Of a stretch of 64,000 bases of DNA, positions 40,047 to 61,624 are shown in pieces. The number at the start of each line of letters is the position of its first letter. The stretch's first letter is position 1. The notes under the pieces were generated by a model, which saw only the letters and a program-made list of their open reading frames with translations, was not told the origin of the DNA and did no database searches. The position numbers were made by a program, and so were the translations under genes. Source of the stretch: a virus; IMG/VR virus record IMGVR_UViG_3300042562_001598, positions 89,149 through 153,148 of that record; one strand, written 5' to 3'.

Positions 40047-41975
40047 ATGGAAAAGATAAATGTATTGAGTTTGTTTGATGGGATGAGTTGTGGTCAGATT
40101 GCTCTGAATAGAGCTGGTATTGAGTATGGTAATTATTATGCTTCTGAAATTGATAAACACGCAATTAAAGAAACCATGGCGAACTATCCCAATACAATCC
40201 AGGTTGGTGATGTTACAAAGATTACAGCGTCAGATTTACCAAAGATAGACTTATTAATTGGTGGTAGTCCATGTTTTACCGCGGGTAATTTAGTGATGAC
40301 TAATGATGGTTATAAACCAATAGAAGATATTGTTGTTGGTGATATGGTATTGACTCATAAAAATAGGTATAAAAAAGTTTTAAGAATTGGTGGTGAAATT
40401 AAAGAGACGATACGAGTAAAATCCCAAGGGTCAAGTATGATAGAAACAACTAGAAACCATCCATTTTATTGTTTTGAGAGTAATGGTGAGAATTCTGACT
40501 TTTGTTGGAAAAATATTGGTGATTTTAATAAAAAAGATAAAGTTGTATCTATAAATTGGGGTGTAAATATTGATTTTGAGAACTTTTCAAATATTGATTT
40601 ATACATATTAGGTCGTTTTTTAGCGGATGGTTGTTGTTACAAAACAAAAAGAAAAGATAGAGATAATTCTTACATCTATAAGTTTAAAATAAGTGTTGGG
40701 AAACATGAAATAGATGACTTTAAGAGTAAAGTTGATGATAGATTTACCTATATTGAAGAAAAAACTGTATATAATGCTTTTATATATAAAAAAGAATGGG
40801 TTGAGATAGGTGAAAAATTTGGCCACTTAGCTCATAATAAATTTATACCTAATTTCATATTAGATTTACCTATTGATAGACTTAAAATTTTCATCAATGG
40901 ATATATGGATGGTGATGGTCATGTTAGAAAACAAGCTTCTAAAGTCAATGTATATAAAAGAAATACGACTGTTAGTGAAAAACTAGCTCTTACATTATCT
41001 TTAGCTATACAAAAATGTTACAATGGGGTGTCAATTAATTATACAAAAAGAGAAAATACTTGTGTTATTGAAGGTAGAGTTGTAAATCAAAAAGGGACTT
41101 ATGAAGTTTCATATACTGAAAATAAAACAAAATTTAGTAAGTATAAAATAATAAATGATTATACAATTTACAACCTGACTAAAAGTGTTTCATTTGTTGA
41201 AACTGGAACTAATCCTGTTTATAATATAGAGGTAGAAGAAGATAATTCATATGTGGTTAATAATCTAATTGTTCATAATTGCCAAGGATTTTCTTTTAGT
41301 GGAAAACAATTAAACTTTGAGGACCCAAGAAGTAAATTGTTCTTTGAGTTTGTTAGACTATTAAAGGAGTGTAATCCGAAATACTTTTTACTTGAGAATG
41401 TTGTAATGAAAAAAGAATATGAACAGGTAATAACTGATTACTTGGGAGTAGAACCCATTCAGATTAATTCCACTTTGGTGGCAGCCCAAAATCGCGTGAG
41501 ATTGTATTGGACCAATATACCAAATGTTCAACAACCTGAAGATAGAAACATAAGGTTAATTGATATTTTAGAAGATGATGTAATGATTGGCGATACAATT
41601 GTTAGAAAGGAGAACCTGAACAAAGGAACTATACTTGGTAGGAGACTAAATAACGAGGGTAAGAGAGACGATTACAATAAAAGTGTGCCAATAGTTCAGT
41701 GCCTTGAGATAAGAGCGTCAAATAGAGAAAAAAGTAATTGTATAACAACCGTGGCCAAAGATAATGTTTTATCTACATTACCAATAGGTCGGCATGTTGA
41801 TGCGTTTAATAAGAAATTACCTTTTAGATATTATACGACTACAGAATATAGTAGATTACAGACTGTTCCAGATGATTATTTCAAGGTTTCAAGTGATAAT
41901 CAGATAAGAAAAATGATTGGTAATGGGTGGACTGTTGATGTTATTGCTCACATATTCAATAATATACAACTATAA
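40047..41975 (+). CDS. DNA (cytosine-5)-methyltransferase interrupted by an intein
   Basis: N-extein ...LIGGSP / intein CFTAGNLV...VHN / C-extein CQGFSFSGKQ; spliced product restores GGSPCQ motif IV. Confidence 0.8.
   Translation: MEKINVLSLFDGMSCGQIALNRAGIEYGNYYASEIDKHAIKETMANYPNTIQVGDVTKITASDLPKIDLLIGGSPCFTAGNLVMTNDGYKPIEDIVVGDMVLTHKNRYKKVLRIGGEIKETIRVKSQGSSMIETTRNHPFYCFESNGENSDFCWKNIGDFNKKDKVVSINWGVNIDFENFSNIDLYILGRFLADGCCYKTKRKDRDNSYIYKFKISVGKHEIDDFKSKVDDRFTYIEEKTVYNAFIYKKEWVEIGEKFGHLAHNKFIPNFILDLPIDRLKIFINGYMDGDGHVRKQASKVNVYKRNTTVSEKLALTLSLAIQKCYNGVSINYTKRENTCVIEGRVVNQKGTYEVSYTENKTKFSKYKIINDYTIYNLTKSVSFVETGTNPVYNIEVEEDNSYVVNNLIVHNCQGFSFSGKQLNFEDPRSKLFFEFVRLLKECNPKYFLLENVVMKKEYEQVITDYLGVEPIQINSTLVAAQNRVRLYWTNIPNVQQPEDRNIRLIDILEDDVMIGDTIVRKENLNKGTILGRRLNNEGKRDDYNKSVPIVQCLEIRASNREKSNCITTVAKDNVLSTLPIGRHVDAFNKKLPFRYYTTTEYSRLQTVPDDYFKVSSDNQIRKMIGNGWTVDVIAHIFNNIQL
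40272..41279 (+). mobile_element. intein (336 aa) with LAGLIDADG homing-endonuclease domain
   Basis: block A CFTAGNLVMTNDG, block B TTRNHPFY (TxxH), LAGLIDADG-like LYILGRFLADGCCY and FINGYMDGDGHV, terminal HN followed by +1 Cys. Confidence 0.7.
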
Positions 41976-44623: not shown

Positions 44624-44827
44624 ATGGAAAAAAAGATAACATTAGGGAAGGCAATCAAAATTAAGGTTAAAGATTCGGTATCATCTTATGTGTGGAATAG
44701 GTTATATGAAAAATTAGATAAGTTAGTAAGTAATAAAATATATAATTCAACCATTCATTTACAAAAAGAATCGGAGGTTTATGAGATGTATTACGCAATA
44801 TGGTTGTCAATTAGGCGTAAATTATGA
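44624..44827 (+). CDS. array unit 1 (degenerate; no SV repeats)
   Basis: MEKKITLGKAIKIKVKDSVSS... leader-like N-terminus. Confidence 0.4.
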   Translation: MEKKITLGKAIKIKVKDSVSSYVWNRLYEKLDKLVSNKIYNSTIHLQKESEVYEMYYAIWLSIRRKL

Positions 44828-45063
44828 AAACAAAGATAGAATTAGGCAAATCGGTTATGAATGAAGTAAGGAGTTCAGTTAGGCGTTCAGTAAATATTTT
44901 AGTGAGTAATTCAGTGTGTGGTTCAGTGAGTAGTTCAGTGGATAGTTCAGTGAGGAGTATAGTGTGTGGTTCAGTAAATATTTCAGTGTATAATTCAGTA
45001 TATGATTCAGTGGATAGTTCAGTGTGGAGTTCAGTATCTGATTCAATAAATAATAATATATGA
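44824..45063 (+). CDS. SV-repeat minigene
   Basis: MKTKIELGKSVMNEVRSSVRRSVNILVSNSVCGSVSSSVDSSV... Confidence 0.55.
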   Translation: MKTKIELGKSVMNEVRSSVRRSVNILVSNSVCGSVSSSVDSSVRSIVCGSVNISVYNSVYDSVDSSVWSSVSDSINNNI

Positions 45064-45224
45064 AAACAAAGTTAGTCTTGGGGAAACCAGTTAATGGTAA
45101 TGTGGTTGAATCAGTTAAGAATTCGGTGTGGATTTTAACACATATTTCATTGTATCGTTCAGTGAATAGTTCAGTATACAATTCAGTGTTTAATTCGGTG
45201 TGGCGTCCAAGTTTTATATTATGA
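45060..45224 (+). CDS. SV-repeat minigene (54 aa, not in track; approx coords)
   Basis: MKTKLVLGKPVNGNVVESVKNSVW...; ATGA overlaps both sides. Confidence 0.45.
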   Translation: MKTKLVLGKPVNGNVVESVKNSVWILTHISLYRSVNSSVYNSVFNSVWRPSFIL

Positions 45225-45388
45225 AAACAAAGATTAAATTGGGGGAATCGGTTAGGGTGTTACTGTATAAGTCAATAAGGAGTTCAGTTGATGTTTCACT
45301 GATGTTTACAGCGTATGGTTCAGTGCATAAGTCAGTGTGGACTTCAGTTAGGACTTCAGTTCATAATCCAACAAATATTAGCATATGA
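45221..45388 (+). CDS. SV-repeat minigene (listed ORF 45200-45388 has internal start MKTKIKLGESV)
   Basis: ATGA overlap with previous unit. Confidence 0.5.
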   Translation: MKTKIKLGESVRVLLYKSIRSSVDVSLMFTAYGSVHKSVWTSVRTSVHNPTNISI

Positions 45389-45594
45389 AAACAAAGATAG
45401 ACCTGGGGGAATCGGTTAAGGGTAAAGTTAGGAGTTCAGTGAGGGATTCAGTGAGACATTCAATATCCCCTTCAATGTACAATTCAGTTAAAAGTGTTCT
45501 GCATAGTGAAATATTTTCATCACTTGAGAATTCTATTAGGCATTCAGTTAGTAATTCAATCTATTGGACTATAGATAACTTCAATAAACTTTAG
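45385..45594 (+). CDS. SV-repeat minigene
   Basis: MKTKIDLGESVKGKVRSSVRDSV... Confidence 0.55.
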   Translation: MKTKIDLGESVKGKVRSSVRDSVRHSISPSMYNSVKSVLHSEIFSSLENSIRHSVSNSIYWTIDNFNKL

Positions 45595-45597
45595 ATT

Positions 45598-45777
45598 ATG
45601 AAAACAAAGGTAGACCTGGGGAAATCAATTAAGGATAAAGTGTATGATTCAGTACTTAGTTCAGTGAGGAGTTCAGTGAATAGTTCAGTGTATGGTTCAG
45701 TTAGTAGTTCAGTGTATGATTCAGTGGGGAGTTCAGTGTATAGTTCAGTTAGGAATTTAACAAACATTAGATTATGA
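45598..45777 (+). CDS. SV-repeat minigene (59 aa, approx)
   Basis: MKTKVDLGKSIKDKVYDSVLSSVRSSVNSSVYGSVSSSVYDSVGSSVYSSV. Confidence 0.5.
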   Translation: MKTKVDLGKSIKDKVYDSVLSSVRSSVNSSVYGSVSSSVYDSVGSSVYSSVRNLTNIRL

Positions 45778-46034
45778 AAACAAAGATTACATTGGGAGAA
45801 TCAGTTGAAGATAAGATTTTCCAAATAGTTACTGATGTGATTAGTAAAAAAAGTTATGACTTGTTAATCAGGGGAGTTTCATCAAATATGTTAAAGGGTG
45901 TTTCAGATGGGGTATATGATTACGCCTATAATTCAATATTACCTTCATTGAGTAGGGAAGTGTGGTTATTAGCGGTCACTAATTCAACAATAAAAAATTA
46001 TGAAAACAAAGATAGACCTGGGGAAATCGGTTAA
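45774..46034 (+). CDS. array unit lacking SV repeats (reads through into next unit leader)
   Basis: MKTKITLGESVEDKIFQIV...; no ATGA stop at its end. Confidence 0.4.
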   Translation: MKTKITLGESVEDKIFQIVTDVISKKSYDLLIRGVSSNMLKGVSDGVYDYAYNSILPSLSREVWLLAVTNSTIKNYENKDRPGEIG

Positions 46035-46167
46035 GTGTAAAGTGTATGAGTCATTGTATTGTTCAGTAAATAGTTCAGTGTTTAGTTCAGTGAGTGGTTC
46101 AGAGATGCGTTCCGTTTGGAGTTCAATGAATAGTTCAGTGTGGATGTTAACAAATTTTAGATTATGA
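46000..46167 (+). CDS. SV-repeat minigene (approx)
   Basis: MKTKIDLGKSVKCKVYESLYCSVNSSVFSSV... Confidence 0.45.
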   Translation: MKTKIDLGKSVKCKVYESLYCSVNSSVFSSVSGSEMRSVWSSMNSSVWMLTNFRL

Positions 46168-46325
46168 AAACAAAGATTAGATTGGGGAGGTCAGTTAAGG
46201 ATAAAGTGAGGAGTTCAGTTTGGAATTTAGTTAGTCATTCATTGATGAGTTCCGTGCATGGTTCAGTGAAAAATCCAGTGTATTTTTCAGTAAGGAGTTC
46301 AATTTATGAATCATTAAAAATATAA
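46164..46325 (+). CDS. SV-repeat minigene (approx)
   Basis: MKTKIRLGRSVKDKVRSSVWNLV... Confidence 0.45.
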   Translation: MKTKIRLGRSVKDKVRSSVWNLVSHSLMSSVHGSVKNPVYFSVRSSIYESLKI

Positions 46326-46326
46326 T

Positions 46327-46530
46327 ATGAAAAATTTAGGTAATTCAATTAAAGATAATGTTGGGGATTTAGTTAAAGTTTCAGTTTGGCGTTCAACGAG
46401 TGAATTAATTAATGATTCAACAGGTGGTTTAACAATCCTTTCAACTTGGAAAACAACAGGTCTATCATTACGAGATTCAGTTAGTAATTCAATTTATAAT
46501 CAATTAAGAGTTCTTCAAGATGAAAATTAA
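46327..46530 (+). CDS. divergent array unit
   Basis: MKNLGNSIKDNVGDLVKVSVWRS... Confidence 0.4.
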   Translation: MKNLGNSIKDNVGDLVKVSVWRSTSELINDSTGGLTILSTWKTTGLSLRDSVSNSIYNQLRVLQDEN

Positions 46531-46696
46531 AAAATTAGGAAAACCTGTTAAGCGTAAGTTGTTTAGTTCGGTAAATAATTTAATTTATTATTCAATAGGT
46601 GTTAAGCTCTATAAAGATAAGACTAGTAATATCTGGGATTTTGGTTACGAGTCAGTAAGAAAACCAATTGATAATTCAATAAATTTTAGATTATGA
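46520..46696 (+). CDS. divergent array unit (approx)
   Basis: MKIKKLGKPVKRKLFSSVNNL...INFRL. Confidence 0.4.
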   Translation: MKIKKLGKPVKRKLFSSVNNLIYYSIGVKLYKDKTSNIWDFGYESVRKPIDNSINFRL

Positions 46697-46980
46697 AAAC
46701 AAAGGTAGGTCTGGGGAAATCAGTTAGTGATAAAGTGAGGAGGTCAGTGGAGAATTCAATTAAAAGTTCAGTTCGGTGTTCAGTAGATGATTTAGTGAGT
46801 AGTTCAGTGAGTTATTCAGTGAGGAGTTCAGTGATGAGTTCAGTGTATTGGCCAGTGTGTGATTTAGTGTGGAGTTCAGTGAGTATTTCAGTTAATATTT
46901 CAGTGTGGCGTTCAGTGAATATTTCAGTACATAATTCAGTAAGGTATTCAGTGAGTGATTCAATAATAAATAGTATATGA
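46693..46980 (+). CDS. SV-repeat minigene (95 aa, longest)
   Basis: MKTKVGLGKSVSDKVRRSVENSIKSSVRCSV... Confidence 0.55.
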   Translation: MKTKVGLGKSVSDKVRRSVENSIKSSVRCSVDDLVSSSVSYSVRSSVMSSVYWPVCDLVWSSVSISVNISVWRSVNISVHNSVRYSVSDSIINSI

Positions 46981-47228
46981 AAACAAAGGTAGACCTGGGT
47001 AAATCGGTTAAGGGTGAAGTATGGAATTTAGTTAATCATTCAGTGTATAGTTCAGTGTATGATTCAGTGAGTTGTTCAGTTAGTAGTTCAGTTATTGATT
47101 CAGTGGATGATTCGGTGTGGAGTTCCGTGCATGTTTCAGTTTGGATTTTATTATATAGGTCAGTGGATGATTCGGTGTGGAGTTCAGTACATGGTTCAGT
47201 TAATAATTCAATAGAGGATAGTATATGA
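46977..47228 (+). CDS. SV-repeat minigene with internal 60-bp duplication
   Basis: SVDDSVWSSVH repeated; DNA 47101-47130 = 47161-47190. Confidence 0.55.
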   Translation: MKTKVDLGKSVKGEVWNLVNHSVYSSVYDSVSCSVSSSVIDSVDDSVWSSVHVSVWILLYRSVDDSVWSSVHGSVNNSIEDSI

Positions 47229-47440
47229 AAACAAAGGTAGACTTGGGAGAATCAGTTAAGAATAAACTTAAGAATTCAGTGTGTAGTTCAGTTAGTCAGT
47301 CCGTGAGTATTTCATTTACAAGTACAAAATATTATTTAGTGGATAGGTCAGTCTATACATCACTGAAATGGTCAGTGAATGATTTGGTATGGTTCTCAGT
47401 GTATGAAATTATTTGTGATTCAATAGAAGATAAATTATGA
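47225..47440 (+). CDS. SV-repeat minigene
   Basis: MKTKVDLGESVKNKLKNSVCSSV... Confidence 0.5.
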   Translation: MKTKVDLGESVKNKLKNSVCSSVSQSVSISFTSTKYYLVDRSVYTSLKWSVNDLVWFSVYEIICDSIEDKL

Positions 47441-47640
47441 AAACGAGGGTAAAATTAGGAAAATCAGTTAAGAATGAGGTTAAAGAATTAGTGTGTTGTA
47501 ATGTGAATTTATTTTATTTTTCAGTGGGAAAATTTGTATATGATTTAGCTAGTGATAAAGTAAAAAATCCGGTGTACAGAACAAGCGATATAATATGGAG
47601 GTCGGTTCGTGACTCAACTATTCAATTTAATAAAAAATAG
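47437..47640 (+). CDS. divergent array unit
   Basis: MKTRVKLGKSVKNEVKELV... Confidence 0.45.
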   Translation: MKTRVKLGKSVKNEVKELVCCNVNLFYFSVGKFVYDLASDKVKNPVYRTSDIIWRSVRDSTIQFNKK

Positions 47641-47643
47641 ACT

Positions 47644-47847
47644 ATGAAATTAGGAAAATCAGTTAAGTTTGAGGTGATTAAAGCGGTTGATGAAGGAATA
47701 TTTGATGTTGTTACAGAATTGATTGATAACTCAATTAAGAATTTAGTATGGGATTCAGTATTTTATTCAGTGTGGGATGCGATGAATGTTTCATTATTAT
47801 CACCGATATTTGAACCAATAGAGGATAACTTATGGGAAGAAAATTAA
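47644..47847 (+). CDS. divergent array unit
   Basis: MKLGKSVKFEVIKAVDEGI... Confidence 0.45.
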   Translation: MKLGKSVKFEVIKAVDEGIFDVVTELIDNSIKNLVWDSVFYSVWDAMNVSLLSPIFEPIEDNLWEEN

Positions 47848-48047
47848 TATTAGGTAAATCAGTTAGTTATAGAGTTACTAATTCAATAGGTGATTCAATC
47901 TGGAGTATTAATTATGGGTCCATTAACCAGTTAGTGGATAGTTCAATTATTTTTCCAATAAAAGACTTATCGGAGGAAATATTAGATGATTTAGTATTTG
48001 GTTTGGTGAGTAGTACAATTAATATTTCAATAACAAATAGACTATGA
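47832..48047 (+). CDS. divergent array unit
   Basis: MGRKLILGKSVSYRVTNSIGDSIW... Confidence 0.45.
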   Translation: MGRKLILGKSVSYRVTNSIGDSIWSINYGSINQLVDSSIIFPIKDLSEEILDDLVFGLVSSTINISITNRL

Positions 48048-48247
48048 AAACAAAATTAATATTGGGTAATTTAGTGGGAACCGAATTAAACAGGTCAATA
48101 TGGGAATCAGTTAGAGTTTCAATTGAGATGAAAGTAGGTGTTTCAGTATGGGAAACAATAAACCAATCAGTTTATGAACCGATACAGGAAATAGTAAATG
48201 ATTCAATCAACAACCAACTATATTGGTTAATAAAAAGTAAAGTATAA
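48044..48247 (+). CDS. divergent array unit (last)
   Basis: MKTKLILGNLVGTELNRSIWESV... Confidence 0.45.
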   Translation: MKTKLILGNLVGTELNRSIWESVRVSIEMKVGVSVWETINQSVYEPIQEIVNDSINNQLYWLIKSKV

Positions 48248-48305: not shown

Positions 48306-49010
48306 ATGGAGATGAAATTATCAATTATTATACCTTGTAAAAATGAAGAAAAATATATAGGTAAATTATTAAATTCTTTATTACAACAAAATTTACCTCA
48401 AAATGTTGAGATAATAATAGCTGACGCTAACTCAACTGATAACACTATAAAAATTATAAACTCTTATTTAGATTTACTACCTAACTTAAAAATTATTCCA
48501 GGTGGTTTACCATCAGTTGGTAGAAATTTAGGTGCTAAAGAATCAAAAGGTGAAATATTATTATTCATTGATTCGGATGTTTATTTTAAACGAGAAAATA
48601 TAATCGTAAAATCTTTAGATACATTCAAGAAAAATAAAGCGGAGATATTAGGTTGTTTCTTAAATATTGAGAATAATCTTAAAGTGAAAATGGTGTATAA
48701 AATCTGTAATCTTATATTCTATTTATCAAAATTTGATAAACCATTTGTTGTTGGGTCATATATGATGATTAACAAAGATGTTTTCTTTAATTTAGGTGGT
48801 TTTGATGAAGAGTTGATGCACTGCGAAGATTACTTTTTAAGTAAAAAAGTTAATCCATCCAAATATACTATAATAAATGAATATGTTTATACTGATGATA
48901 GGAGATTTATAAAATTAGGTATGTTAGGTATGATAAAATATTTTATTAAAAACATAGTTGAAAAAAACAATAAAGATTATTTTAAACAAGATGTTGGATA
49001 TTGGTTATGA
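48306..49010 (+). CDS. family-2 glycosyltransferase
   Basis: LSIIIPCKNEEKYIGKLLNSLLQQ...IIADANSTDNT...DSDV (DxD). Confidence 0.7.
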   Translation: MEMKLSIIIPCKNEEKYIGKLLNSLLQQNLPQNVEIIIADANSTDNTIKIINSYLDLLPNLKIIPGGLPSVGRNLGAKESKGEILLFIDSDVYFKRENIIVKSLDTFKKNKAEILGCFLNIENNLKVKMVYKICNLIFYLSKFDKPFVVGSYMMINKDVFFNLGGFDEELMHCEDYFLSKKVNPSKYTIINEYVYTDDRRFIKLGMLGMIKYFIKNIVEKNNKDYFKQDVGYWL

Positions 49011-49726
49011 ATTATAAAACAGTTATTATTTCAGATTTACATTTAGGTTCAACATATTCCAGGTCGGAAGATATCGCTAATTTTTTAGATAAAATTAAAT
49101 GTGAGACCCTCATATTAAATGGTGATATTATTGATGGTTGGGCGTTAAAAAGAGGAAACGCTTGGACGCAGGAACATATGAAATGCGTTAGAAAACTTAT
49201 GAAGAAATCTTATAAAACCAAAATATATTGGGTTAGAGGTAATCATGATGATTTCTTACATGATTTTATACCATTAAATTTAGGTAATATTAGTCTTGTT
49301 GAAAATATGGACTTATACGGGTTAAATGGTAAAAAATATTTAGTTTTACATGGTGATATCTTTGATGTATTTGTAAATAAAATGAAATGGTTAGCGAAAA
49401 TTGGTTCCGTTGGTTATGATTTTACACTTTGGTTGAATAAATGGTATAACAAATATAGAGCATTTAGAGGTAAGGAGTATTTTTCATTATCTAAAAAAAT
49501 AAAAGATTCAGTTAAGAGTGCGACCAACTTTATTGGGGATTTTGAGGACCATATGGTTAGTCATTCAAGGTCGTTAAACTATGATGGTGTTATATGTGGT
49601 CATATTCATAAAGCTGAGATTAGAGAAATAAATGGTATTGAGTATATGAATTCTGGGGATTGGGTTGAATCAAAAACCGCTTTAGTTGAATCTTATACAG
49701 GTGAATGGAGTTTGTTATATTATTAA
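49001..49726 (+). CDS. calcineurin-like metallophosphoesterase (LpxH-like)
   Basis: ISDLHLG, GDIIDG, GNHDD, LHGD, GHIH motifs. Confidence 0.65.
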   Translation: MVMNYKTVIISDLHLGSTYSRSEDIANFLDKIKCETLILNGDIIDGWALKRGNAWTQEHMKCVRKLMKKSYKTKIYWVRGNHDDFLHDFIPLNLGNISLVENMDLYGLNGKKYLVLHGDIFDVFVNKMKWLAKIGSVGYDFTLWLNKWYNKYRAFRGKEYFSLSKKIKDSVKSATNFIGDFEDHMVSHSRSLNYDGVICGHIHKAEIREINGIEYMNSGDWVESKTALVESYTGEWSLLYY

Positions 49727-50344: not shown

Positions 50345-50689
50345 ATGAAAACTCAATTTGCACCTGAAGAAATTACATTAGAATTAAAAGCGTTGGGTTT
50401 TGATGAGACTTGTTTTGGTTATTATGATGGTACTGGTTATGTAATGATAAAAGAAATTAAACATTGTGTAATATCCGCACCGACATTCGCTCAAGCGTTT
50501 AGATTTTTTAGAGATAAGTATGAGTTATATTATACTATAGAAGGTTCAAAAAAATATGGGTTTGCTTTTTTTATTTATTATGAAAACGATGATAAAGGTG
50601 AATTAAAATCTAAAGAATATTCTACCTACGAAGAAGCTGAACAGGAATGTTTAATTAAATTAATAGAAATCACTAAAGAAAAGAAATAA
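50345..50689 (+). CDS. hypothetical protein, tandem paralog 1 (C-terminus YSTYEEAEQECLIKLIEI)
   Basis: paralogous to next gene. Confidence 0.45.
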   Translation: MKTQFAPEEITLELKALGFDETCFGYYDGTGYVMIKEIKHCVISAPTFAQAFRFFRDKYELYYTIEGSKKYGFAFFIYYENDDKGELKSKEYSTYEEAEQECLIKLIEITKEKK

Positions 50690-51069
50690 TGGAAAATCAA
50701 TTTGTTGGTTATAATGAAGCAAAACAATTAAGTGAGTTAGGTTTCAGTGAACAATGTTTTGCTGGTTACTTAAAAGAAGAAAAAACTCTTTGGATTGGAT
50801 ATGTTAGTTCCCAGGGTGGGGAACAATTCAATAGAGAGTATCATATCTTAGCTCCAACATATTATCAAGCGGTAAAGTTCATCCGGGATAAATACAATTT
50901 ATGTTACGCAATTGACCCCTACGATGATGGGACTTATGATTACACCATCTTCAACCCTTACATTACAGATGAGGAAGATTTTGAGGAAGGACCCTACAAA
51001 ACCTACGAAGAAGCGGAACAGGCTTGTTTAGTCAAGTTGATAGTTATCAGCAAAGGACTGAAAAAATAA
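50689..51069 (+). CDS. hypothetical protein, tandem paralog 2 (C-terminus YKTYEEAEQACLVKLIVI)
   Basis: shared APT(F/Y)(A/Y)QA(F/V)(R/K)F(F/I)RDKY core. Confidence 0.45.
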   Translation: MENQFVGYNEAKQLSELGFSEQCFAGYLKEEKTLWIGYVSSQGGEQFNREYHILAPTYYQAVKFIRDKYNLCYAIDPYDDGTYDYTIFNPYITDEEDFEEGPYKTYEEAEQACLVKLIVISKGLKK

Positions 51070-51077
51070 TAAATAAA

Positions 51078-51120
51078 TTCCTCACTTATTAAAATAAAGG
51101 TGGGGAATTATTTTTTTATA
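51078..51120 (+). terminator. intrinsic terminator (repeated cassette)
   Basis: near-identical to 50059 copy. Confidence 0.55.
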
Positions 51121-54575: not shown

Positions 54576-55400
54576 ATGAGAGATAATAAGAAAGGGGATA
54601 ATATAAATAATAATGTTATGACAATAGATTTAAGATTTGGTGATACGATAGAACAAATGAAATTGATATCTGATAAAAGTATTGACTTTATTTGTTGTGA
54701 TTTACCTTATGGTTCAACAAAAAACAATTGGGATATTATCATACCATTTGACCAACTTTGGGAACAATATAAGAGAATTATTAAAGATGATGGGGCTATC
54801 GCGTTATTTGGGACAGGTTTGTTTGCTTATAAGTTAGCGTTATCAAATGAGAAAATGTATAAGTATGAAATAATTTGGTCAAAATCTAAAAGTGGTAGTT
54901 CATTTACTGCAAAATATAGACCCGTTCAGAAACATGAAAACATTTTAATATTTGGGAAAGGTAAAGTGGTATATAATCCACAATTAGAACCGGGTGAACC
55001 ATACTATAGGAAACGGAAAGCTAATGATGGGGATAAACCAAATAATCATAAATTAGGTGTTGTATCTGAAAGTGAGACCAAGAATGATGGGTTTAGATAT
55101 CCGTCAACTATTCAATTTTTCCAACAAAAATGGAGAAGGCAAGACCAACTACATAGTACACAAAAACCTGTGGAACTTATAGAATGGTTAATAAAATCAT
55201 ATAGTAATGAAAGTGATACTATTTTGGATAATACATTTGGTAGTTGCACCGCGGGAATTGCTAGTATAAACACTAATAGGAATTTTATAGGAATTGAGAA
55301 TAACCAACATTATTTTGATGTTTCTATAGAGAGAATTAATAAAATATTACAATATAACGACCCGAACCATATGAAAGACATTATCTTAATTACTCAATAA
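54576..55400 (+). CDS. beta-class N6-adenine/N4-cytosine DNA methyltransferase (start probably 54618, MTIDLRFGD)
   Basis: motif IV CCDLPYGS (D/S-PPY-like), C-terminal motif I ILDNTFGSCTAGIAS (DxFxGSGT). Confidence 0.7.
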   Translation: MRDNKKGDNINNNVMTIDLRFGDTIEQMKLISDKSIDFICCDLPYGSTKNNWDIIIPFDQLWEQYKRIIKDDGAIALFGTGLFAYKLALSNEKMYKYEIIWSKSKSGSSFTAKYRPVQKHENILIFGKGKVVYNPQLEPGEPYYRKRKANDGDKPNNHKLGVVSESETKNDGFRYPSTIQFFQQKWRRQDQLHSTQKPVELIEWLIKSYSNESDTILDNTFGSCTAGIASINTNRNFIGIENNQHYFDVSIERINKILQYNDPNHMKDIILITQ

Positions 55401-55431
55401 AAAAAGGGGGGATAATATAAATAATAATGTT

Positions 55432-55950
55432 ATGAGAGTAAATTTCAACAAAGTTACCTGTATTAACTTAAAATCTGTTAATCAACAACAACTATTGGCC
55501 ATATGTGAGACCTACCTATTTGGTTTTGAGGGATTACTTATGGATAAAAAAGACGGAATAAATATTATATGGATAGATAGTGAAGCAAATACTGTTGCAT
55601 ATACATATACTGGTGATTGGGGAGAAGTATTGGTTAAGGGGAGTCACTACAATGGGATGGTTCAAAAGGACTATGATAGAATAATGGATATTAAACCCGT
55701 AAAGACCCCAAAGTTTCCAAAGACAGACCAAGCACTAAATAATTATATTTCTTTCTTAAAAGAGGGATTTGATGTGAGAATACCCACAATTGATTCGTTA
55801 ATAGAACATAAGTTAAGAGAACAAGAAAGATACAAAGAAATACAACAAATACCGGTTATATTAGATATGGATATAATCTTGGATAAGATTAATAAGTATG
55901 GGATAACTTCATTAACCGATGAAGAGAAAGATTATATGGATAATATCTAA
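55432..55950 (+). CDS. hypothetical protein
   Basis: preceded by the same 28-nt GGGGATAATATAAATAATAATGTTATG element as the MTase gene. Confidence 0.45.
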   Translation: MRVNFNKVTCINLKSVNQQQLLAICETYLFGFEGLLMDKKDGINIIWIDSEANTVAYTYTGDWGEVLVKGSHYNGMVQKDYDRIMDIKPVKTPKFPKTDQALNNYISFLKEGFDVRIPTIDSLIEHKLREQERYKEIQQIPVILDMDIILDKINKYGITSLTDEEKDYMDNI

Positions 55951-55987
55951 AATTGGGGATAACATATATTTATTATAAAATCGTAAT

Positions 55988-56933: not shown

Positions 56934-56934
56934 T

Positions 56935-59048: not shown

Positions 59049-59243
59049 TTAGTTAAGTTCATCGTATATCTCCAGGGTAACAAGGTTCCATACCGGAAGT
59101 TCTATTGATTTATATGGGGGATTATAAATGGACTGGGGATAATCATACCTGGTCTTTATCCAAAGGGGTGTATCAATATTGAGACTTATTGAACTATACA
59201 CTATACCCTTAACTGACTTCCCCAATGTAATCTTTGTTTTCAT
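59049..59243 (-). CDS. array unit (degenerate C-terminus)
   Basis: MKTKITLGKSVKGIVYSSISLNIDTPLW... Confidence 0.4.
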   Translation of the reverse strand: MKTKITLGKSVKGIVYSSISLNIDTPLWIKTRYDYPQSIYNPPYKSIELPVWNLVTLEIYDELN

Positions 59244-59414
59244 AATCTAAAATTTGTTGAATTATTAACAGGGTCAACCAATAACCTCCATACTAAATCA
59301 TATATTGGACCATGCACGGAACTCATCAATGAACGACTAACTGAACGCCACACTGAACTCCTCACTTTATCCCTAACTGATTTCCCCAATCTAATCCTGG
59401 GGGTAATAACTTCT
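59241..59414 (-). CDS. SV-repeat minigene (approx, not in track)
   Basis: MKEVITPRIRLGKSVRDKVRSSVWRSVSRSLMSSVHG...NFRL. Confidence 0.4.
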
Positions 59415-59415
59415 T

Positions 59416-59643
59416 TCATATACTATTCTTTATTGAATTATTAACTGAACCATACACTAAATTCCACACTGAACTATATACTGAAATATTCACTGAACGC
59501 CTAACTGAACAACTCACTGAACTATGTACGGAACTATACATTGAATTATCTACTGAACCATACACTAAATTCCACACTGAATTCCACACTAACTTATCCA
59601 CCGGTTTACCCAATCTAATCCTGGGGGTAATAACTTCTTTCAT
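59416..59643 (-). CDS. SV-repeat minigene (MKEV type)
   Basis: MKEVITPRIRLGKPVDKLVWNSVWNLVYGSV... Confidence 0.55.
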   Translation of the reverse strand: MKEVITPRIRLGKPVDKLVWNSVWNLVYGSVDNSMYSSVHSSVSCSVRRSVNISVYSSVWNLVYGSVNNSIKNSI

Positions 59644-59843
59644 ATACTATTCTTTATTGAATTATTAACTGAACGCCAAGCTGAACTATACACTGAATCA
59701 TATACTGAATTCTGCACCGAACTATCCACTGAACCACACACTATACTCCTCAATGAAATATCCACTGAACTACTCACTGAATCATACACTGACCTCCTCA
59801 CTTTACGATTAACCGATTTCCCCAAGACTAACTTTGTTTTCAT
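59640..59843 (-). CDS. SV-repeat minigene (MKTK type; listed ORF extends to 59864)
   Basis: internal start MKTKLVLGKSVNRKVRRSVYDSV. Confidence 0.5.
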   Translation of the reverse strand: MKTKLVLGKSVNRKVRRSVYDSVSSSVDISLRSIVCGSVDSSVQNSVYDSVYSSAWRSVNNSIKNSI

Positions 59844-60007
59844 AATATAAAACTTGAACTCCACACCGAATTAAACACTGAAATATTTACTGAACCACAC
59901 ACTATACTCCTCACTGAACTATCCACTGAATAATACACTGACTTCCTCACTTTAACCTTAACCGATTTCCCCAAGACTAACTTGGGGGTAATAATCTTAT
60001 TATCCAT
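59840..60007 (-). CDS. SV-repeat minigene (55 aa, approx, not in track)
   Basis: MDNKIITPKLVLGKSVKVKVRKSVYYSVDSSVRSIVCGSV... Confidence 0.4.
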   Translation of the reverse strand: MDNKIITPKLVLGKSVKVKVRKSVYYSVDSSVRSIVCGSVNISVFNSVWSSSFIL

Positions 60008-60183
60008 AATCTAAAATTTGTTGAACTATATACTGAAATATTCACTGAGCGTCTAACTGAAAACCAGACTGAACTATGTACTAAATCCCACAATGAACTA
60101 CCCACTGAACTACTCAATGACCTATTCACTGACCTACTAACTGATTCCCCCAATGTAATCCTGGGGGTTATTACTTCTTTCAT
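59977..60183 (-). CDS. SV-repeat minigene (MKEV type; reads through into next leader)
   Basis: MKEVITPRITLGESVSRSVNRSLSSSVGSS... Confidence 0.5.
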   Translation of the reverse strand: MKEVITPRITLGESVSRSVNRSLSSSVGSSLWDLVHSSVWFSVRRSVNISVYSSTNFRLWIIRLLPPS

Positions 60184-60398
60184 AATCTATTCTTTATTGA
60201 TTCACGTATTGGACGACTAACTGAACTCTTCACTGAACTATGCACTGACCTTTCTACTGAATGATACAATGAAATATCCACAGAACTACTTACTAAACGA
60301 CTAGCTGAATAATCCCTCAATGAATGATACACTGAACGATTAATTGAATCCCACAATTTATCCTTAACAGATTCTCTAATTCTAATCTTTGTTTTCAT
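60180..60398 (-). CDS. SV-repeat minigene (MKTK type)
   Basis: MKTKIRIRESVKDKLWDSINRSVYHSL... Confidence 0.5.
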   Translation of the reverse strand: MKTKIRIRESVKDKLWDSINRSVYHSLRDYSASRLVSSSVDISLYHSVERSVHSSVKSSVSRPIRESIKNRL

Positions 60399-60622
60399 AA
60401 TCTATTTATTATTGAACTCCTCACTGACCTTATCACTGAACTATTCACTGAACGATACACTGAACGATACACTGAACGATATACTGAACTCCTAACAGAA
60501 CCCCTCACTGAACGATTCACCGAACTATTCACTGACCTTATCACTGAACTACTCACTGAACTATCCACTTTACCCTTAACTGACTTCCCCAATGTAATCC
60601 TGGGGGATATTACTTCTTTCAT
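60395..60622 (-). CDS. SV-repeat minigene with 3x perfect 12-nt tandem repeat (SVYRSVYRSVYRSV)
   Basis: gaacgatacact x3 at about 60450-60485. Confidence 0.55.
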   Translation of the reverse strand: MKEVISPRITLGKSVKGKVDSSVSSSVIRSVNSSVNRSVRGSVRSSVYRSVYRSVYRSVNSSVIRSVRSSIINRL

Positions 60623-60822
60623 AATCTATTCTTTATTGATTCATTAACTGAACCCTTAATTGAACTCCATACTGAATTAGTCACTGGTCTCCACACCGAA
60701 TCATCCACTGACCTAACCACTGTAGTATTAACCGACCCCATACTTGAACCCACCACATAATCATGTAGATAAACTCTCACTTTACGATTAACCGGTTTCC
60801 CCAATGTAATCTTTGTTTTCAT
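60619..60822 (-). CDS. SV-repeat minigene (MKTK type)
   Basis: MKTKITLGKPVNRKVRVYLHDYVVGSS... Confidence 0.5.
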   Translation of the reverse strand: MKTKITLGKPVNRKVRVYLHDYVVGSSMGSVNTTVVRSVDDSVWRPVTNSVWSSIKGSVNESIKNRL

Positions 60823-61034
60823 AATATAAAATTTGTTAAACTCCTGATTGGAGAATCCACTGAACGCCTAACTGAAATATACACCGAACTACTCACTGAA
60901 CTATATACTGAACCATGCACTGACCTTTCTACTGAACTATATACTGAACCATGCACGGAATTATCTACTGAACTCAACACTAACTTATTAACCGACTTCC
61001 CCAATCTTATCCTGGGGGATATAACTTCTTTCAT
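60819..61034 (-). CDS. SV-repeat minigene (MKEV type)
   Basis: MKEVISPRIRLGKSVNKLVLSSVDNSVHGSVYSSV... Confidence 0.55.
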   Translation of the reverse strand: MKEVISPRIRLGKSVNKLVLSSVDNSVHGSVYSSVERSVHGSVYSSVSSSVYISVRRSVDSPIRSLTNFIL

Positions 61035-61222
61035 ATTCTATTCTTTATTGAACTATATACTGAATTACTCACTGAACTCTCCACTGAAGACCTTACCAAT
61101 CTCCATACTGAATCATACACTGGAATATTTACTGAACCACACAATGCACCAATCATTGACATATCCAGCGAACTTCTTAATTTATCACTAACTGACCTCC
61201 CCAATTTAATATTTGTATTCAT
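61031..61222 (-). CDS. SV-repeat minigene (internal start MNTNIKLGRSV of listed ORF 61031-61279)
   Basis: leader variant. Confidence 0.45.
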   Translation of the reverse strand: MNTNIKLGRSVSDKLRSSLDMSMIGALCGSVNIPVYDSVWRLVRSSVESSVSNSVYSSIKNRI

Positions 61223-61409
61223 TATTAAAAGTTGTTGGATACCACAATGAATCACACACTGCATCACATACAGAATCACGCAATAACCAATTCACTGAAC
61301 TATACACGGAACTATATACAGAATCGTACACTGTAATCCTAAGTGAACTACTTATTTCACCCTTAACCGGTTTCCCCAATCTAATCCTGGGGGTCATAAC
61401 TTCTTTCAT
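61206..61409 (-). CDS. SV-repeat minigene (MKEV type, degenerate tail)
   Basis: MKEVMTPRIRLGKPVKGEISSSLRITVYDSVYSSVYSSV. Confidence 0.5.
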   Translation of the reverse strand: MKEVMTPRIRLGKPVKGEISSSLRITVYDSVYSSVYSSVNWLLRDSVCDAVCDSLWYPTTFNNEYKY

Positions 61410-61624
61410 ATTCTAATGTTTATTGAATTAGTCACTGACCTATATACTGAACGATATACTGAACTACTCACCGAAATATCCACTGAACTCTTAACTGAAT
61501 TCCTAACTGGTCTACTTACTGAATTAGCCACTAAATCATACACTGACCTACTTACTTTATCCATAACCAAACTCCCCAATCTTATCCTGGGGGTTATTAC
61601 TTTACCATCCATATCACTTAACAA
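61406..61624 (-). CDS. SV-repeat minigene (outermost unit, leader MLSDMDGKVITPRIRLG)
   Basis: same family. Confidence 0.5.
   Translation of the reverse strand: MLSDMDGKVITPRIRLGSLVMDKVSRSVYDLVANSVSRPVRNSVKSSVDISVSSSVYRSVYRSVTNSINIRI

What the first reader, a model, noticed from the sequence alone, without database searches (positions are those of the whole stretch)
44624..48247. Tandem array of about 18 paralogous minigenes built from a 12-nt DNA period (nnTTCAGTGnnn), encoding x-S-V-x tetrapeptide repeats
Seen directly: about 18 head-to-tail ORFs of 45-95 aa, almost all joined by ATGA start/stop overlaps. Each begins with the leader atgaaaacaaag(a/g)tagacctgggg(a/g)aatc(g/a)gttaag (MKTKIxLG(K/E)SV). 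After the leader comes a body in which the heptamer TTCAGTG recurs every 12 nt. The translation is (NNT-codon residue)-S-V-x repeated 8-20 times, e.g. RSSVRRSVNILVSNSVCGSVSSSVDSSV. The C-termini are semi-conserved (NSI.NRL, TNFRL, IEDSI). A few units lack the repeats but keep the leader. I recognise neither the protein family nor this gene organisation. It resembles hypervariable contingency loci, or conserved-leader/variable-core peptide families, but not any characterised phage module.
Basis: seen in the sequence. Interest (0 to 1): 0.9.

Follow-up and report, generated by a model that had tools for sequence, protein, structure and literature searches.

The report
Phage arrays of tetrapeptide-repeat minigenes
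This probable phage genome carries 31 tiny back-to-back genes in two blocks, each encoding a short protein built from a four-residue repeat (x-x-Ser-Val) that normally sits inside a larger uncharacterised phage protein (DUF6745), which here lacks it; it looks like that repeat split off and multiplied into a fast-changing gene family of unknown role.

Summary
Positions 44624-48247 (+) hold 18 intact head-to-tail ORFs of 53-95 aa. A second, inverted array of 13 units lies at 59049-61612 (-). The 12-nt period is strong: lag-12 identity is 0.45 against 0.31-0.34 in controls.

The units hit no Pfam, PHROG, NCBIfam, PADLOC, PDB or Rfam entry, and I found no paper describing them. Relatives occur only in metagenomes, as arrays of 14 to about 58 units.

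An exhaustive profile search shows the same x-x-S-V tetrad tract as the central insert of 270-570 aa DUF6745 (PF20530) proteins. The window's own DUF6745 protein (32803-33810) lacks that tract. Across viral contigs, tract-bearing DUF6745 genes have no nearby minigenes (24 of 25). Tract-less ones usually do (7 of 11), in two cases as an overlapping downstream operon.

Codon choice differs between lineages, so the conserved thing is the protein repeat, not the DNA motif. The arrays are divergence hot spots: 65-84% identity inside flanks that are 94-97% identical.

Best reading: translated, stand-alone, amplified copies of the DUF6745 tract, probably helical rods acting with the tract-less DUF6745 core. 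The biochemical function is unknown. This is a new family in an unusual split-and-amplified arrangement.

The parts
44624..48247 (+). Array 1: 18 head-to-tail minigenes (units 1-18).
   Evidence: ORFs seen. All 18 hit the family HMM at E 1e-9 to 1e-27. 12-nt periodicity shown.
59049..61612 (-). Array 2: 13 head-to-tail minigenes (units 19-31), inverted relative to array 1. Leaders are MKTK.. or MKEVITPRIxLGKSV.
   Evidence: HMM hits at E 1e-12 to 1e-19. Sequence read. 10 of 12 junctions are ATGA. Inverted repeats up to 179 nt at 84% with array 1.
32803..33810 (+). DUF6745 (PF20530) protein of 335 aa that lacks the tetrad tract carried by its homologues. Proposed partner of the minigene products.
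   Evidence: Pfam 35.3 bits against a cut-off of 27. The alignment shows the tract inserted after ...ITLVKD in homologues of 32-40% identity. AF2 pLDDT 91.8, pTM 0.79.
34709..34885 (+). Degenerate leader-only ORF (MKLGKYIGQ..., 58 aa), at the site where relative L054 has five units.
   Evidence: Below the HMM threshold, so membership is tentative.
44624..44827 (+). Unit 1 (67 aa, degenerate; MEKKITLGKAIK).
   Evidence: Orthologues at 77-85% identity in L008, L011 and L015.
44824..45063 (+). Unit 2 (79 aa, 15 S-V dyads).
45060..45224 (+). Unit 3 (54 aa).
45221..45388 (+). Unit 4 (55 aa, counted from the ATG at 45221).
45385..45594 (+). Unit 5 (69 aa).
45598..45777 (+). Unit 6 (59 aa).
45774..46034 (+). 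Unit 7 (86 aa, repeat-poor; overlaps the start of unit 8 by 35 nt).
   Evidence: 96-99% identical orthologues in L011 and L015.
46000..46167 (+). Unit 8 (55 aa).
46164..46325 (+). Unit 9 (53 aa).
46327..46530 (+). Unit 10 (67 aa, degenerate; MKNLGNSIK).
46520..46696 (+). Unit 11 (58 aa, degenerate).
46693..46980 (+). Unit 12 (95 aa, 19 dyads).
46977..47228 (+). Unit 13 (83 aa, 16 dyads). This is the unit modelled with AF2.
47225..47440 (+). Unit 14 (71 aa).
47437..47640 (+). Unit 15 (67 aa, degenerate).
47644..47847 (+). Unit 16 (67 aa, degenerate, acidic).
47832..48047 (+). Unit 17 (71 aa, degenerate).
48044..48247 (+). Unit 18 (67 aa, degenerate).
59049..59243 (-). Unit 19 (64 aa, last unit of array 2, repeat-poor).
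59240..59419 (-). Unit 20 (59 aa).
59416..59643 (-). Unit 21 (75 aa).
59640..59843 (-). Unit 22 (67 aa).
   Evidence: 95% identical orthologue in L002.
59840..60007 (-). Unit 23 (55 aa).
59977..60183 (-). Unit 24 (68 aa; reads 31 nt into unit 23).
60180..60398 (-). Unit 25 (72 aa).
60395..60622 (-). Unit 26 (75 aa, net charge +13).
60619..60822 (-). Unit 27 (67 aa).
60819..61034 (-). Unit 28 (71 aa).
61031..61222 (-). Unit 29 (63 aa from MNTNIKLGRSV; the first upstream ATG is at 61264).
61206..61409 (-). Unit 30 (67 aa).
61406..61612 (-). Unit 31 (68 aa, first unit of array 2).

Best explanation
The two arrays are real protein-coding genes. They are a tandemly amplified family of about 7-kDa, mostly basic proteins whose whole length, from the leader LGKSV onward, is one unbroken run of four-residue units x-x-S-V.

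This is the same module that forms the variable-length central insert of DUF6745 proteins, which have the layout N-domain, then (x-[D/A/S/N]-[S/Q/N]-V)n, then the DUF6745 domain. In this phage lineage the DUF6745 protein has no insert. The module is instead encoded separately and amplified to dozens of copies: a gene fission followed by amplification.

Inferred mechanism:
- The units are translated one after another by termination-reinitiation at the ATGA overlaps.
- Each folds into a long helix.
- The invariant S-V dyads form the structural seam by which the rods pair with each other or dock onto the tract-less DUF6745 core.
- The two variable residues per tetrad form the exposed surface.
- The phage thereby makes, at once, a library of alternative surfaces that tract-bearing relatives can only sample one at a time through slippage in a single gene.

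Unequal crossing-over and conversion among 12-nt units and among whole genes keep the DNA homogeneous and turn the repertoire over quickly.

Shown: coding status, family, the relation to the DUF6745 tract, the split/fused complementarity and the rapid turnover.

Inferred: the helical rod, trans-association with DUF6745 and the library function. The biochemical target is unknown.
For: Coding status:
- 31 intact ORFs in the window. 664 family ORFs, 396 of them distinct, were collected across the metagenome loci.
- Pooled dN/dS is 0.52 between orthologues and 0.41 for the leader; degenerate units give 0.05-0.5.
- The same S-V is encoded by different codons in different lineages: TCA-GTG, TCA-GTA, TCG-GTC, AGC-GTC, TCT-GTA, TCC-GTT.

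Same module as the DUF6745 tract:
- A profile of the units hits the central tract of 270-570 aa proteins at E down to 8e-39. The five full-length examples of these that I scanned all carry PF20530 above Pfam's cut-off.
- SV, QV and NV flavours all occur both fused and free-standing.
- P0294 enters its tract with ...KYKLGDSIRNSVWASV, which resembles the minigene leader.

Complementarity:
- The window's DUF6745 protein and its 66-93% identical relatives lack the tract, whereas homologues of 32-40% identity carry 9-42 tetrads at the same point.
- Among 36 loci with a full-length DUF6745 gene, 24 of 25 tract-bearing genes have no minigene within 10 kb, and 7 of 11 tract-less genes do (Fisher p = 2.8e-4).
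- In L056 and L058 the first unit overlaps the DUF6745 stop codon by 11 nt. L058 then has 39 units.

Turnover:
- Window against L008: flanks are 94-97% identical, with neighbouring proteins at 99-100%. The array interior is 65-84% identical and scrambled.
- Copy number ranges from 14 to about 58.

Structure:
- AF2 predicts a single helix over residues 7-82 at pLDDT 88.
- The hydrophobic moment peaks sharply at 90 degrees.
- The dyads keep one register throughout each unit.
Against: - There is no experimental or structural evidence that the units bind DUF6745 or each other.
- In the window the DUF6745 gene is 11 kb from array 1, not adjacent.
- The 36 loci are not phylogenetically independent, so the Fisher test overstates the support.
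- For a low-complexity repeat, homology cannot be strictly separated from convergence.
- A composition rich in Ser and Val is not typical of helices, and a 4.0-residue period does not fit canonical coiled coils, so the AF2 helix may be wrong.
- Positive selection on the variable positions is not demonstrated. The pos2 dN/dS of 1.56 comes from an unusually low dS.
Confidence: 0.5

Rival explanations
1. The minigenes are an independent amplified family of small basic host-takeover or anti-defence proteins, binding for example nucleic acid or the cell envelope. They expanded in the way of a 'genomic accordion' under an arms race. The resemblance to the DUF6745 tract reflects only a shared or convergent structural motif, with no functional coupling.
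For: - The units are mostly basic: median pI 9.8, mean net charge +4.
- The arrays are divergence hot spots with variable copy number.
- In the window the arrays lie 11 and 25 kb from the DUF6745 gene.
- A second, different protein family (L027, L036) also carries an SV tract, so the module is not exclusive to DUF6745.
Against: - Fused and split forms are complementary.
- L056 and L058 have an overlapping operon arrangement.
- All three repeat flavours are shared between fused and free forms.
Confidence: 0.27
2. The units are precursor peptides with a conserved leader and a variable Ser-rich core. They are modified after translation, for example O-glycosylated on the repeated Ser by the adjacent family-2 glycosyltransferase, as in RiPP or glycopeptide systems with many precursors per enzyme.
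For: - A GT2 gene (48306-49010) directly follows array 1 in the window and in L015.
- There is one Ser per tetrad.
- The N-terminus is conserved and the body is variable.
Against: - The GT2 and phosphoesterase genes form an indel cassette, absent from L008 and L012 whose flanks are 92-97% identical. They are also absent next to the arrays of L001, L002, L005 and L058.
- The 'leader' is only about 11 aa and is the first tetrad of the repeat.
- No cleavage motif is evident, and there is under one Cys per unit on average.
- The same tract is an integral insert of a folded protein in relatives.
Confidence: 0.06
3. The arrays are a store of silent or alternative cassettes, or the target of a diversity-generating mechanism. 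Segments would be copied by recombination or by a retroelement into an expression site, as in antigenic-variation loci or DGR variable repeats.
For: - Variation is concentrated at nucleotides 1, 2, 4 and 5 of the 12-nt unit, with positions 6-11 fixed.
- The arrays are mosaic between relatives.
- The inverted arrays share segments of up to 179 nt at 84% identity.
Against: - Every unit has its own start, stop and conserved termini.
- The DUF6745 gene in this lineage has no tract that could receive cassettes.
- The variable sites are strongly depleted in C rather than showing the mutation pattern at template adenines expected of a DGR.
- No reverse transcriptase is evident in the window. This was only a motif check, with two incidental F[IV]DD matches.
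Confidence: 0.05
4. The functional entity is the DNA or RNA repeat itself, a 12-nt satellite with the TTCAGTG core acting for example as a protein-binding array. On this reading the ORFs are incidental.
For: - Ser is TCA in 80-100% of tetrads, against 32% in other genes of the window.
- Synonymous divergence inside the tetrads is 3-5 times lower than in the leader.
Against: - Related tracts use entirely different codons for the same S-V.
- The Val codon differs between minigene lineages, GTG against GTA.
- 31 of 31 ORFs in the window are intact, and several hundred more family ORFs were collected in other loci.
- The degenerate units keep the protein-level leader and are the best conserved.
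- There is no Rfam match.
- A 12-nt period is out of phase with the DNA helical repeat (general knowledge).
Confidence: 0.03

Closest known systems
Central tetrapeptide-repeat tract of DUF6745 (Pfam PF20530) proteins, for example metagenomic P0094-P0100 and P0294. Tract-less members include Microcystis phage Ma-LMM01 gp174.
   Same: - The same four-residue unit: a variable residue, a small or polar residue, S (or Q or N), then V.
- The same preference for W, R, Y, G and D, N, A, S at the two variable positions.
- The same DNA homogeneity within a tract.
- Found in the same genomes. The profile matches reach E 8e-39.
   Different: - There the tract is an internal insert of one 270-570 aa protein, between an N-domain and the DUF6745 domain.
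- Here it is a free-standing 53-95 aa protein with its own start, leader and C-terminal motif, multiplied 31-58 times.
- DUF6745 itself has no known function, no solved structure and no paper that I could find.
Tandem gene amplification under conflict ('genomic accordions' of poxviruses; paralogue expansions in large phages and giant viruses). This comparison rests on my own knowledge, not on a tool result.
   Same: - A head-to-tail array of paralogues.
- Copy number varies between close relatives.
- The interior diverges much faster than the flanks.
   Different: - The paralogues are old, 60-84% identical at the DNA level, rather than recent identical copies.
- The amplified unit is a piece of another protein's repeat, not a whole known effector gene.
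- No selective agent is known.
Multi-precursor RiPP loci, for example the prochlorosin-type lanthipeptide precursors (my own knowledge).
   Same: Many small adjacent genes with a conserved N-terminus and a variable remainder.
   Different: - The leader is very short and is part of the repeat.
- No cleavage motif is evident and the units are poor in Cys.
- The C-terminus is conserved.
- No conserved modifying enzyme is present.
Short-period repeat proteins: pentapeptide-repeat proteins (PF00805), and heptad or hendecad coiled coils and single alpha-helix domains (my own knowledge of these classes).
   Same: A very short sequence period maintained without a break over the whole polypeptide, with a conserved structural position and variable exposed positions.
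   Different: - The period is 4.0 residues, not 5, 3.5 or 3.67.
- There is no Pfam hit.
- The hydrophobic moment peaks at 90 degrees and is low at 100 degrees.
- The composition is rich in S and V rather than A/D/L or E/K/R.
TLP-4 freshwater glycofibrils with linear tetrapeptide repeats (bioRxiv 10.1101/2025.09.30.679562 and the papers it cites).
   Same: A tetrapeptide repeat with one conserved Ser/Thr. An environmental, apparently freshwater setting; for the window's relatives this is my reading of the sample series, not a tool result. A glycosyltransferase lies next to one array.
   Different: The TLP-4 repeats are defined by a 3,4-dihydroxyproline next to the glycosylated Ser/Thr. The minigene products have only 1.9% Pro, and none in the tetrad. 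The GT2 gene is not a conserved neighbour.

Membership tests
DUF6745 (PF20530) tetrad tract | Uninterrupted four-residue repeat x-x-[S/Q/N]-V with the hydrophobic residue at position 4. | tested here: met
   2-19 in-register S-[VIL] dyads per unit. The profile matches DUF6745 tracts at E down to 8e-39.
DUF6745 (PF20530) tetrad tract | The tract is embedded in one polypeptide between the N-terminal domain and the DUF6745 domain. | tested here: not met
   The units are separate 53-95 aa ORFs with no Pfam domain. The DUF6745 protein of the window has no tract.
DUF6745 (PF20530) tetrad tract | A DUF6745 gene is present in the same genome or locus. | tested here: met
   Window 32803-33810 scores 35.3 bits against a cut-off of 27. 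In L056 and L058 the array starts inside the stop region of the DUF6745 gene.
RiPP precursor array | A leader peptide of about 20 aa or more, with a recognisable cleavage site, distinct from the core. | tested here: not met
   The conserved N-terminus is about 11 aa (MKTKIxLGKSV) and is in register with the repeat. No cleavage motif was evident on reading the aligned units.
RiPP precursor array | A conserved adjacent modifying enzyme. | tested here: not met
   The GT2 gene is present only in the window and L015, and absent in L008, L012, L001, L002, L005 and L058.
Contingency (phase-variable) locus | Slippage of the repeat unit shifts the reading frame or promoter spacing and so switches expression on and off. 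| tested here: not met
   The repeat unit is 12 nt, a multiple of three. All 31 ORFs are intact. Only length variation is seen between orthologues, for example 54 against 58 aa and 55 against 59 aa.
Diversity-generating retroelement target | A reverse transcriptase plus a template-repeat/variable-repeat pair, with variation at template adenines. | tested here: not met
   No convincing reverse transcriptase in the window (motif check only). Variable sites are strongly depleted in C (2-11%) and no template copy was seen. The rest of the genome lies outside the window and is untested.
Pentapeptide-repeat proteins (PF00805) | A five-residue period A(D/N)LXX that matches the Pfam model. | tested here: not met
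   The period is 4. No Pfam hit at E up to 1.
Canonical coiled coil or single alpha-helix domain | A hydrophobic period of 3.5-3.67 residues, or an E/K/R-rich charge pattern. | tested here: not met
   The hydrophobic moment is 1.26 at 90 degrees and 0.34 at 100 degrees. S is 20% and V 15% of residues, E only 3%.
Known anti-phage defence, anti-defence or phage families (PADLOC, PHROGs, NCBIfam) | A significant profile match. | tested here: not met
   No PHROG hit better than E 0.018, none in NCBIfam at E up to 0.01 and none in PADLOC at E up to 0.1.

The most novel reading that the evidence does not exclude
The arrays are a previously unrecognised way for a virus to diversify a recognition or effector protein. 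The variable helical insert of a DUF6745 protein has been detached, multiplied to dozens of genes and expressed as a library of interchangeable subunits. These subunits dock in trans onto one constant DUF6745 core, which would make it a protein-level combinatorial repertoire maintained by concerted evolution. This is distinct from DGRs, from cassette switching and from phase variation.
Probability: 0.2. Interest if true: 0.85.

Novelty: new variant of a known kind. Interest (0 to 1): 0.62.

Why it matters
If the reading is right, three things follow.

1. It gives a first functional handle on DUF6745. That domain is widespread and wholly uncharacterised in phages (56 IMG/VR loci, plus Microcystis phages) and in bacteria. 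The variable tetrad tract would be identified as a separable module.

2. It documents an unusual evolutionary route: fission of an internal repeat followed by amplification to 31-58 genes. These genes take up about 6-11 kb of the phage genome.

3. It provides a clean natural system for studying concerted evolution of a coding 12-nt repeat, and the structure of a polypeptide with an exact four-residue period, for which I know of no solved example.

The arrays also break metagenome assemblies, since most of the contigs that carry them are 1-6 kb. This family is therefore probably undercounted.

The biological role is not known, so the importance is potential rather than established.

Tried and rejected
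Searches that found nothing:
- Megablast of 44-49 kb against GenBank phages: no match.
- tblastn of unit 13 and of the window's DUF6745 protein against GenBank phages: no match.
- Pfam, PHROGs, NCBIfam and PADLOC on the units: nothing significant.
- PDB sequence search with the unit profile and with the DUF6745 protein: nothing.
- BFVD search: returned only other DUF6745 proteins.
- The AFDB library was not available.
- Rfam on the whole window: nothing.
- tRNA scan, to test whether a phage tRNA-Ser(UGA) could explain the TCA bias: none found.
- Leader DNA pattern: 0 hits in IMG/VR and 0 in GTDB genomes, so there is no host clue.

Searches that were uninformative or failed:
- DNA pattern TTCAGTG x3 in IMG/VR: 36 loci, but mostly unrelated repeats in other reading frames.
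- The search for related loci with the unit alignment, and with the DUF6745 alignments on genome contigs, failed for lack of conserved columns.
- Sigma-70 promoter scan: fewer sites than in shuffled sequence.

Readings rejected:
- A DGR reading, because of the base spectrum at the variable sites and the lack of a reverse transcriptase.
- A TLP-4 glycofibril analogy, because the defining hydroxyproline has no counterpart.
- A claim of positive selection from the pos2 dN/dS of 1.56. It is driven by a depressed dS, and the S and V classes in that test are circular by construction.
- Weak hits of DUF6745 tracts to MSCRAMM SD repeats, GvpQ and a nicking endonuclease. These are low-complexity artefacts far below the curated cut-offs.

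Full report
**1. Checking the observation**

Window 44624-48247 (+) contains 18 consecutive ORFs of 53-95 aa with no internal stop codon. Eleven of the 17 junctions are ATGA overlaps. The rest are gaps of 1-3 nt or overlaps of 11-35 nt. Twelve units begin MKTK and one MKTR. The others keep a shortened M..LGK(S/P)(V/I) start.

The 12-nt period is clear. Base identity at lags 12, 24 and 36 is 0.45, 0.46 and 0.43, against 0.31-0.34 at lag 12 in four control stretches of the same window. The strongest Fourier peaks are harmonics of 12. Thirty-seven of the 40 plus-strand TTCAGTG copies in the window lie in this stretch, and 41 of 68 successive TTCAGT spacings are exactly 12. Within each unit almost all S-[V/I/L] dyads share one register modulo 4, including the dyad of the leader LGKSV. 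The 'leader' is therefore the first turn of the repeat and not a separate element.

**2. The feature is larger than reported**

A profile built from the units finds 13 further members on the minus strand at 59049-61612. They are again head-to-tail, with 10 of 12 junctions ATGA, and their leaders are MKTK.. or MKEVITPRIxLGKSV. The two arrays are inverted relative to each other and share segments of up to 179 nt at 84% identity. A degenerate leader-only ORF (MKLGKYIGQ..., 34709-34885) sits two genes downstream of the DUF6745 gene discussed in section 7, at the place where relative L054 has five units.

**3. Genomic setting**

The window has 30% GC. It is densely packed with mostly small plus-strand genes, few of which have annotation. 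Those that do:
- four C5 DNA methyltransferases, one split by an intein;
- an N6/N4 methyltransferase;
- a protein with a weak, sub-threshold peptidoglycan-binding domain match;
- a lipoprotein;
- a family-2 glycosyltransferase;
- a metallophosphoesterase.

Its relatives are environmental contigs, several of them filed in IMG/VR. One is 368.5 kb and its DUF6745 protein is 66% identical. I therefore treat the window as part of a large phage genome. This is an inference. The host is unknown: the leader DNA pattern has no match in 185,579 GTDB genomes.

**4. No known family matches**

The units give nothing significant in Pfam, PHROGs, NCBIfam, PADLOC, PDB sequences or Rfam. They have no BLAST match in 50,697 GenBank phage records. 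Full-text searches for DUF6745, for the repeat strings and for tetrapeptide-repeat phage genes found no description.

**5. Relatives elsewhere**

A word-indexed search with the unit alignment found 93 proteins. All are 41-107 aa and all are known only from metagenome-derived records. None carries a family annotation; one has an unrelated automatic label (YjdF). The contigs that encode them carry the same kind of array:
- about 58 units over 11.6 kb in L001;
- two arrays in L002;
- 19 units in L005;
- 19 units in L008;
- 16 units in L015.

The leader DNA pattern occurs in 46 JGI metagenome contigs, mostly 1-6 kb long, and in none of the IMG/VR contigs. The short contigs suggest that the repeats break assemblies.

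**6. Coding sequence or DNA repeat?**

In the minigenes, Ser of the dyad is TCA in 80-100% of cases, against 32% in other genes of the window. The preceding codon ends in T in 73-87% of cases. This looks like nucleotide-level conservation.

The codon used for the same S-V dyad is not constant, however. Val is GTG in the window's lineage and GTA in the L054, L056, L058 and L059 lineages. In related tracts inside larger proteins each gene uses its own single codon pair with near-total homogeneity: TCG-GTC, AGC-GTC, AGC-GTG, TCT-GTA or TCC/TCA-GTT. What is conserved is therefore the peptide repeat. The homogeneity of the DNA within a gene or lineage is best explained by slippage, unequal crossing-over and conversion among 12-nt units.

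Other evidence agrees with coding. Orthologous units give a pooled dN/dS of 0.52, with 0.05-0.5 for the degenerate units. Over 149 pairs the leader gives 0.41.

One oddity remains. Synonymous divergence inside the tetrads (0.017-0.03) is 3-5 times lower than in the leader (0.093). Concerted evolution can account for this, but selection on the nucleotide sequence is not excluded. The same low dS inflates the dN/dS of 1.56 at tetrad position 2, so I do not claim positive selection.

**7. The key lead: the DUF6745 tract**

An exhaustive HMMER search of 1.84 billion representative proteins found 1573 matches at E up to 0.001. Roughly 40 of the best 150 are free-standing small proteins. The top hits (E 8e-39 to 1e-20) are 270-570 aa proteins matched in several stretches. 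Their sequences have the layout N-terminal domain, then a long tract such as SVWDSVRDSVRASV..., then a C-terminal domain. In the five full-length examples I scanned, that C-terminal domain is Pfam DUF6745, PF20530.

The window itself encodes a DUF6745 protein at 32803-33810 (35.3 bits against a cut-off of 27). It has both flanking domains but no tract. Homologues of 32-40% identity (P0294, P0309, P0310) carry 9-42 tetrads inserted exactly after the conserved ...ITLVKD/AILKD. P0294 enters its tract with KYKLGDSIRNSVWASV, which resembles the minigene leader. Tracts come in SV, QV and NV flavours. All three flavours also occur as free-standing minigenes: SV widely, NV in L062 and QV in L094.

**8. 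Split and fused forms are complementary**

A scan of IMG/VR with the DUF6745 alignment gave 56 loci. Thirty-six loci, counting the window, have a full-length DUF6745 gene:
- 24 of 25 tract-bearing genes have no minigene within about 10 kb;
- 7 of 11 tract-less genes do (Fisher p = 2.8e-4);
- two of the four apparent exceptions (L057, L060) have one HMM-detected unit just upstream.

In L056 and L058 the first unit overlaps the end of the DUF6745 gene by 11 nt, and L058 goes on for 39 units. The loci are not independent samples. Even so, the pattern recurs in at least four DUF6745 clades and in all three repeat flavours.

**9. Turnover**

L008 is nearly the same phage. Its 348-aa and 166-aa proteins upstream of array 1 are 100% and 99.4% identical to the window's, and the flanking DNA is 94-97% identical. 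The array interior aligns at only 65-84% and out of order.

The degenerate units (1, 7, 10, 11, 14-18) have collinear orthologues at 85-100% identity. The most repetitive units (2, 5, 9, 12, 13) have none better than 48-66% in most relatives; units 12 and 13 each reach 79-85% in only one or two of them. The paralogues within the window are themselves old, at 60-84% DNA identity. The GT2 and phosphoesterase pair after array 1 is an indel cassette that L008 and L012 lack. This argues against a dedicated modification system.

**10. Physical properties and structure**

The units are mostly basic, with a median pI of 9.8 and a mean net charge of +4, although a few are acidic. Composition is 20% Ser, 15% Val, under one Cys per unit on average and 1.9% Pro. 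AF2 run with a 30-sequence alignment predicts a single helix over residues 7-82 of unit 13 at pLDDT 88. The hydrophobic moment peaks sharply at 90 degrees per residue and is low at 100 degrees. On an ideal alpha-helix the Val stripe would therefore wind around the axis. This does not fit canonical coiled coils, so the true fold and oligomeric state remain open.

**11. Interpretation**

Shown:
- a real, translated-looking multigene family;
- it is the free-standing form of the DUF6745 tetrad tract;
- it is present where the DUF6745 gene lacks the tract;
- it is amplified to dozens of copies and turns over fast.

Inferred:
- each unit is made by translational coupling at the ATGA overlaps;
- each forms a rod whose S-V dyads are the structural seam and whose two variable positions are exposed;
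- the rods pair with each other or dock on the DUF6745 core, giving a repertoire of surfaces.

I put about 0.8 on the statement of what it is and about 0.35 on the trans-acting library mechanism, which gives 0.5 overall.

Rivals:
- an independent amplified family of small basic proteins (0.27);
- modified precursor peptides (0.06);
- a cassette store or DGR target (0.05);
- a DNA-level element (0.03).

**12. Novelty and score**

The protein family and the split-and-amplified arrangement appear undescribed, and the parent domain is a DUF. Tandem paralogue expansion and repeat-length variation are known phenomena, so I rate this a new variant of a known kind rather than categorically new. Interest is 0.62: a specialist would be surprised by 31-58 tandem genes derived from another protein's internal repeat, and the hypothesis is directly testable, but no function is established.

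Noticed in passing
window 59049-61612 (-): A second array of 13 minigenes of the same family lies outside the coordinates I was given. It is inverted relative to array 1. In relative L002 the orthologous second array has the same orientation as the first, so the segment has been rearranged between these phages.
   Followed up: yes
window 34709-34885 (+): A 58-aa ORF begins MKLGKYIGQ. It has a minigene-like leader but no S-V repeats. It sits after the conserved 128-aa gene, at the place where relative L054 carries five units. It may be a relic or a very divergent member.
   Followed up: partly
window 48306-49726 (+): The family-2 glycosyltransferase and the metallophosphoesterase form an insertion/deletion cassette. 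It is present here and in L015 but missing from L008 and L012, whose flanking DNA is 92-97% identical.
   Followed up: yes
window 61650-62200: A non-coding patch with up to 50% GC, in a 30% GC genome, is full of C5 and G5 runs. It lies immediately upstream of array 2. It has no Rfam match and its role is unknown (promoter or regulatory region, RNA, or a remnant of a mobile element).
   Followed up: partly
window 49742, 50054, 51067, 53914, 57590 (49 nt each): Five copies of an intergenic stem-loop (CCTCAC...GGTGAGG/GGTGGGG) followed by a T-run. They look like a reused intrinsic terminator between the genes that separate the two arrays.
   Followed up: no
window 37475-41975 and 27744-28718, 54576-55400: Three adjacent C5 cytosine methyltransferase genes, the third interrupted by an intein (Hint plus a LAGLIDADG-like domain). 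There is a fourth C5 methyltransferase and an N6/N4 methyltransferase elsewhere in the window. This is an unusually heavy load of methylases.
   Followed up: partly
window 50624-51079; 54583-55445; 55984-56979: Further local duplications: pairs of 49-79 nt at 76-94% identity at the ends or starts of neighbouring genes. They suggest other tandemly duplicated small genes between the arrays.
   Followed up: no
L094 5829-8687: In a different phage lineage, QV-type minigenes (one with about 25 xSQV tetrads) lie between a MoxR-like AAA+ ATPase gene and a gene that, by motif reading only, combines a metallopeptidase (HEICH) motif with what looks like a von Willebrand A-type domain. All of this is downstream of a truncated, tract-less DUF6745 gene.
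   Followed up: no
L027 2220-3050; L036 4741-5475: A second protein family (244-276 aa; MCKFFS...NKYEYNPL... N-terminus) also carries an internal SV tetrad tract with 100% TCA-GTG codons. The module is therefore not restricted to canonical DUF6745 proteins.
   Followed up: no
L002 3726-4898: An IS605 OrfB/TnpB-type gene lies a few kb from the array in the relative L002 (and in L003).
   Followed up: no
window arrays, tetrad codons: Synonymous divergence between orthologues is 3-5 times lower inside the tetrads than in the leader. Ser is almost always TCA in every minigene lineage. This is consistent with concerted evolution, but selection at the nucleotide level is not excluded.
   Followed up: partly
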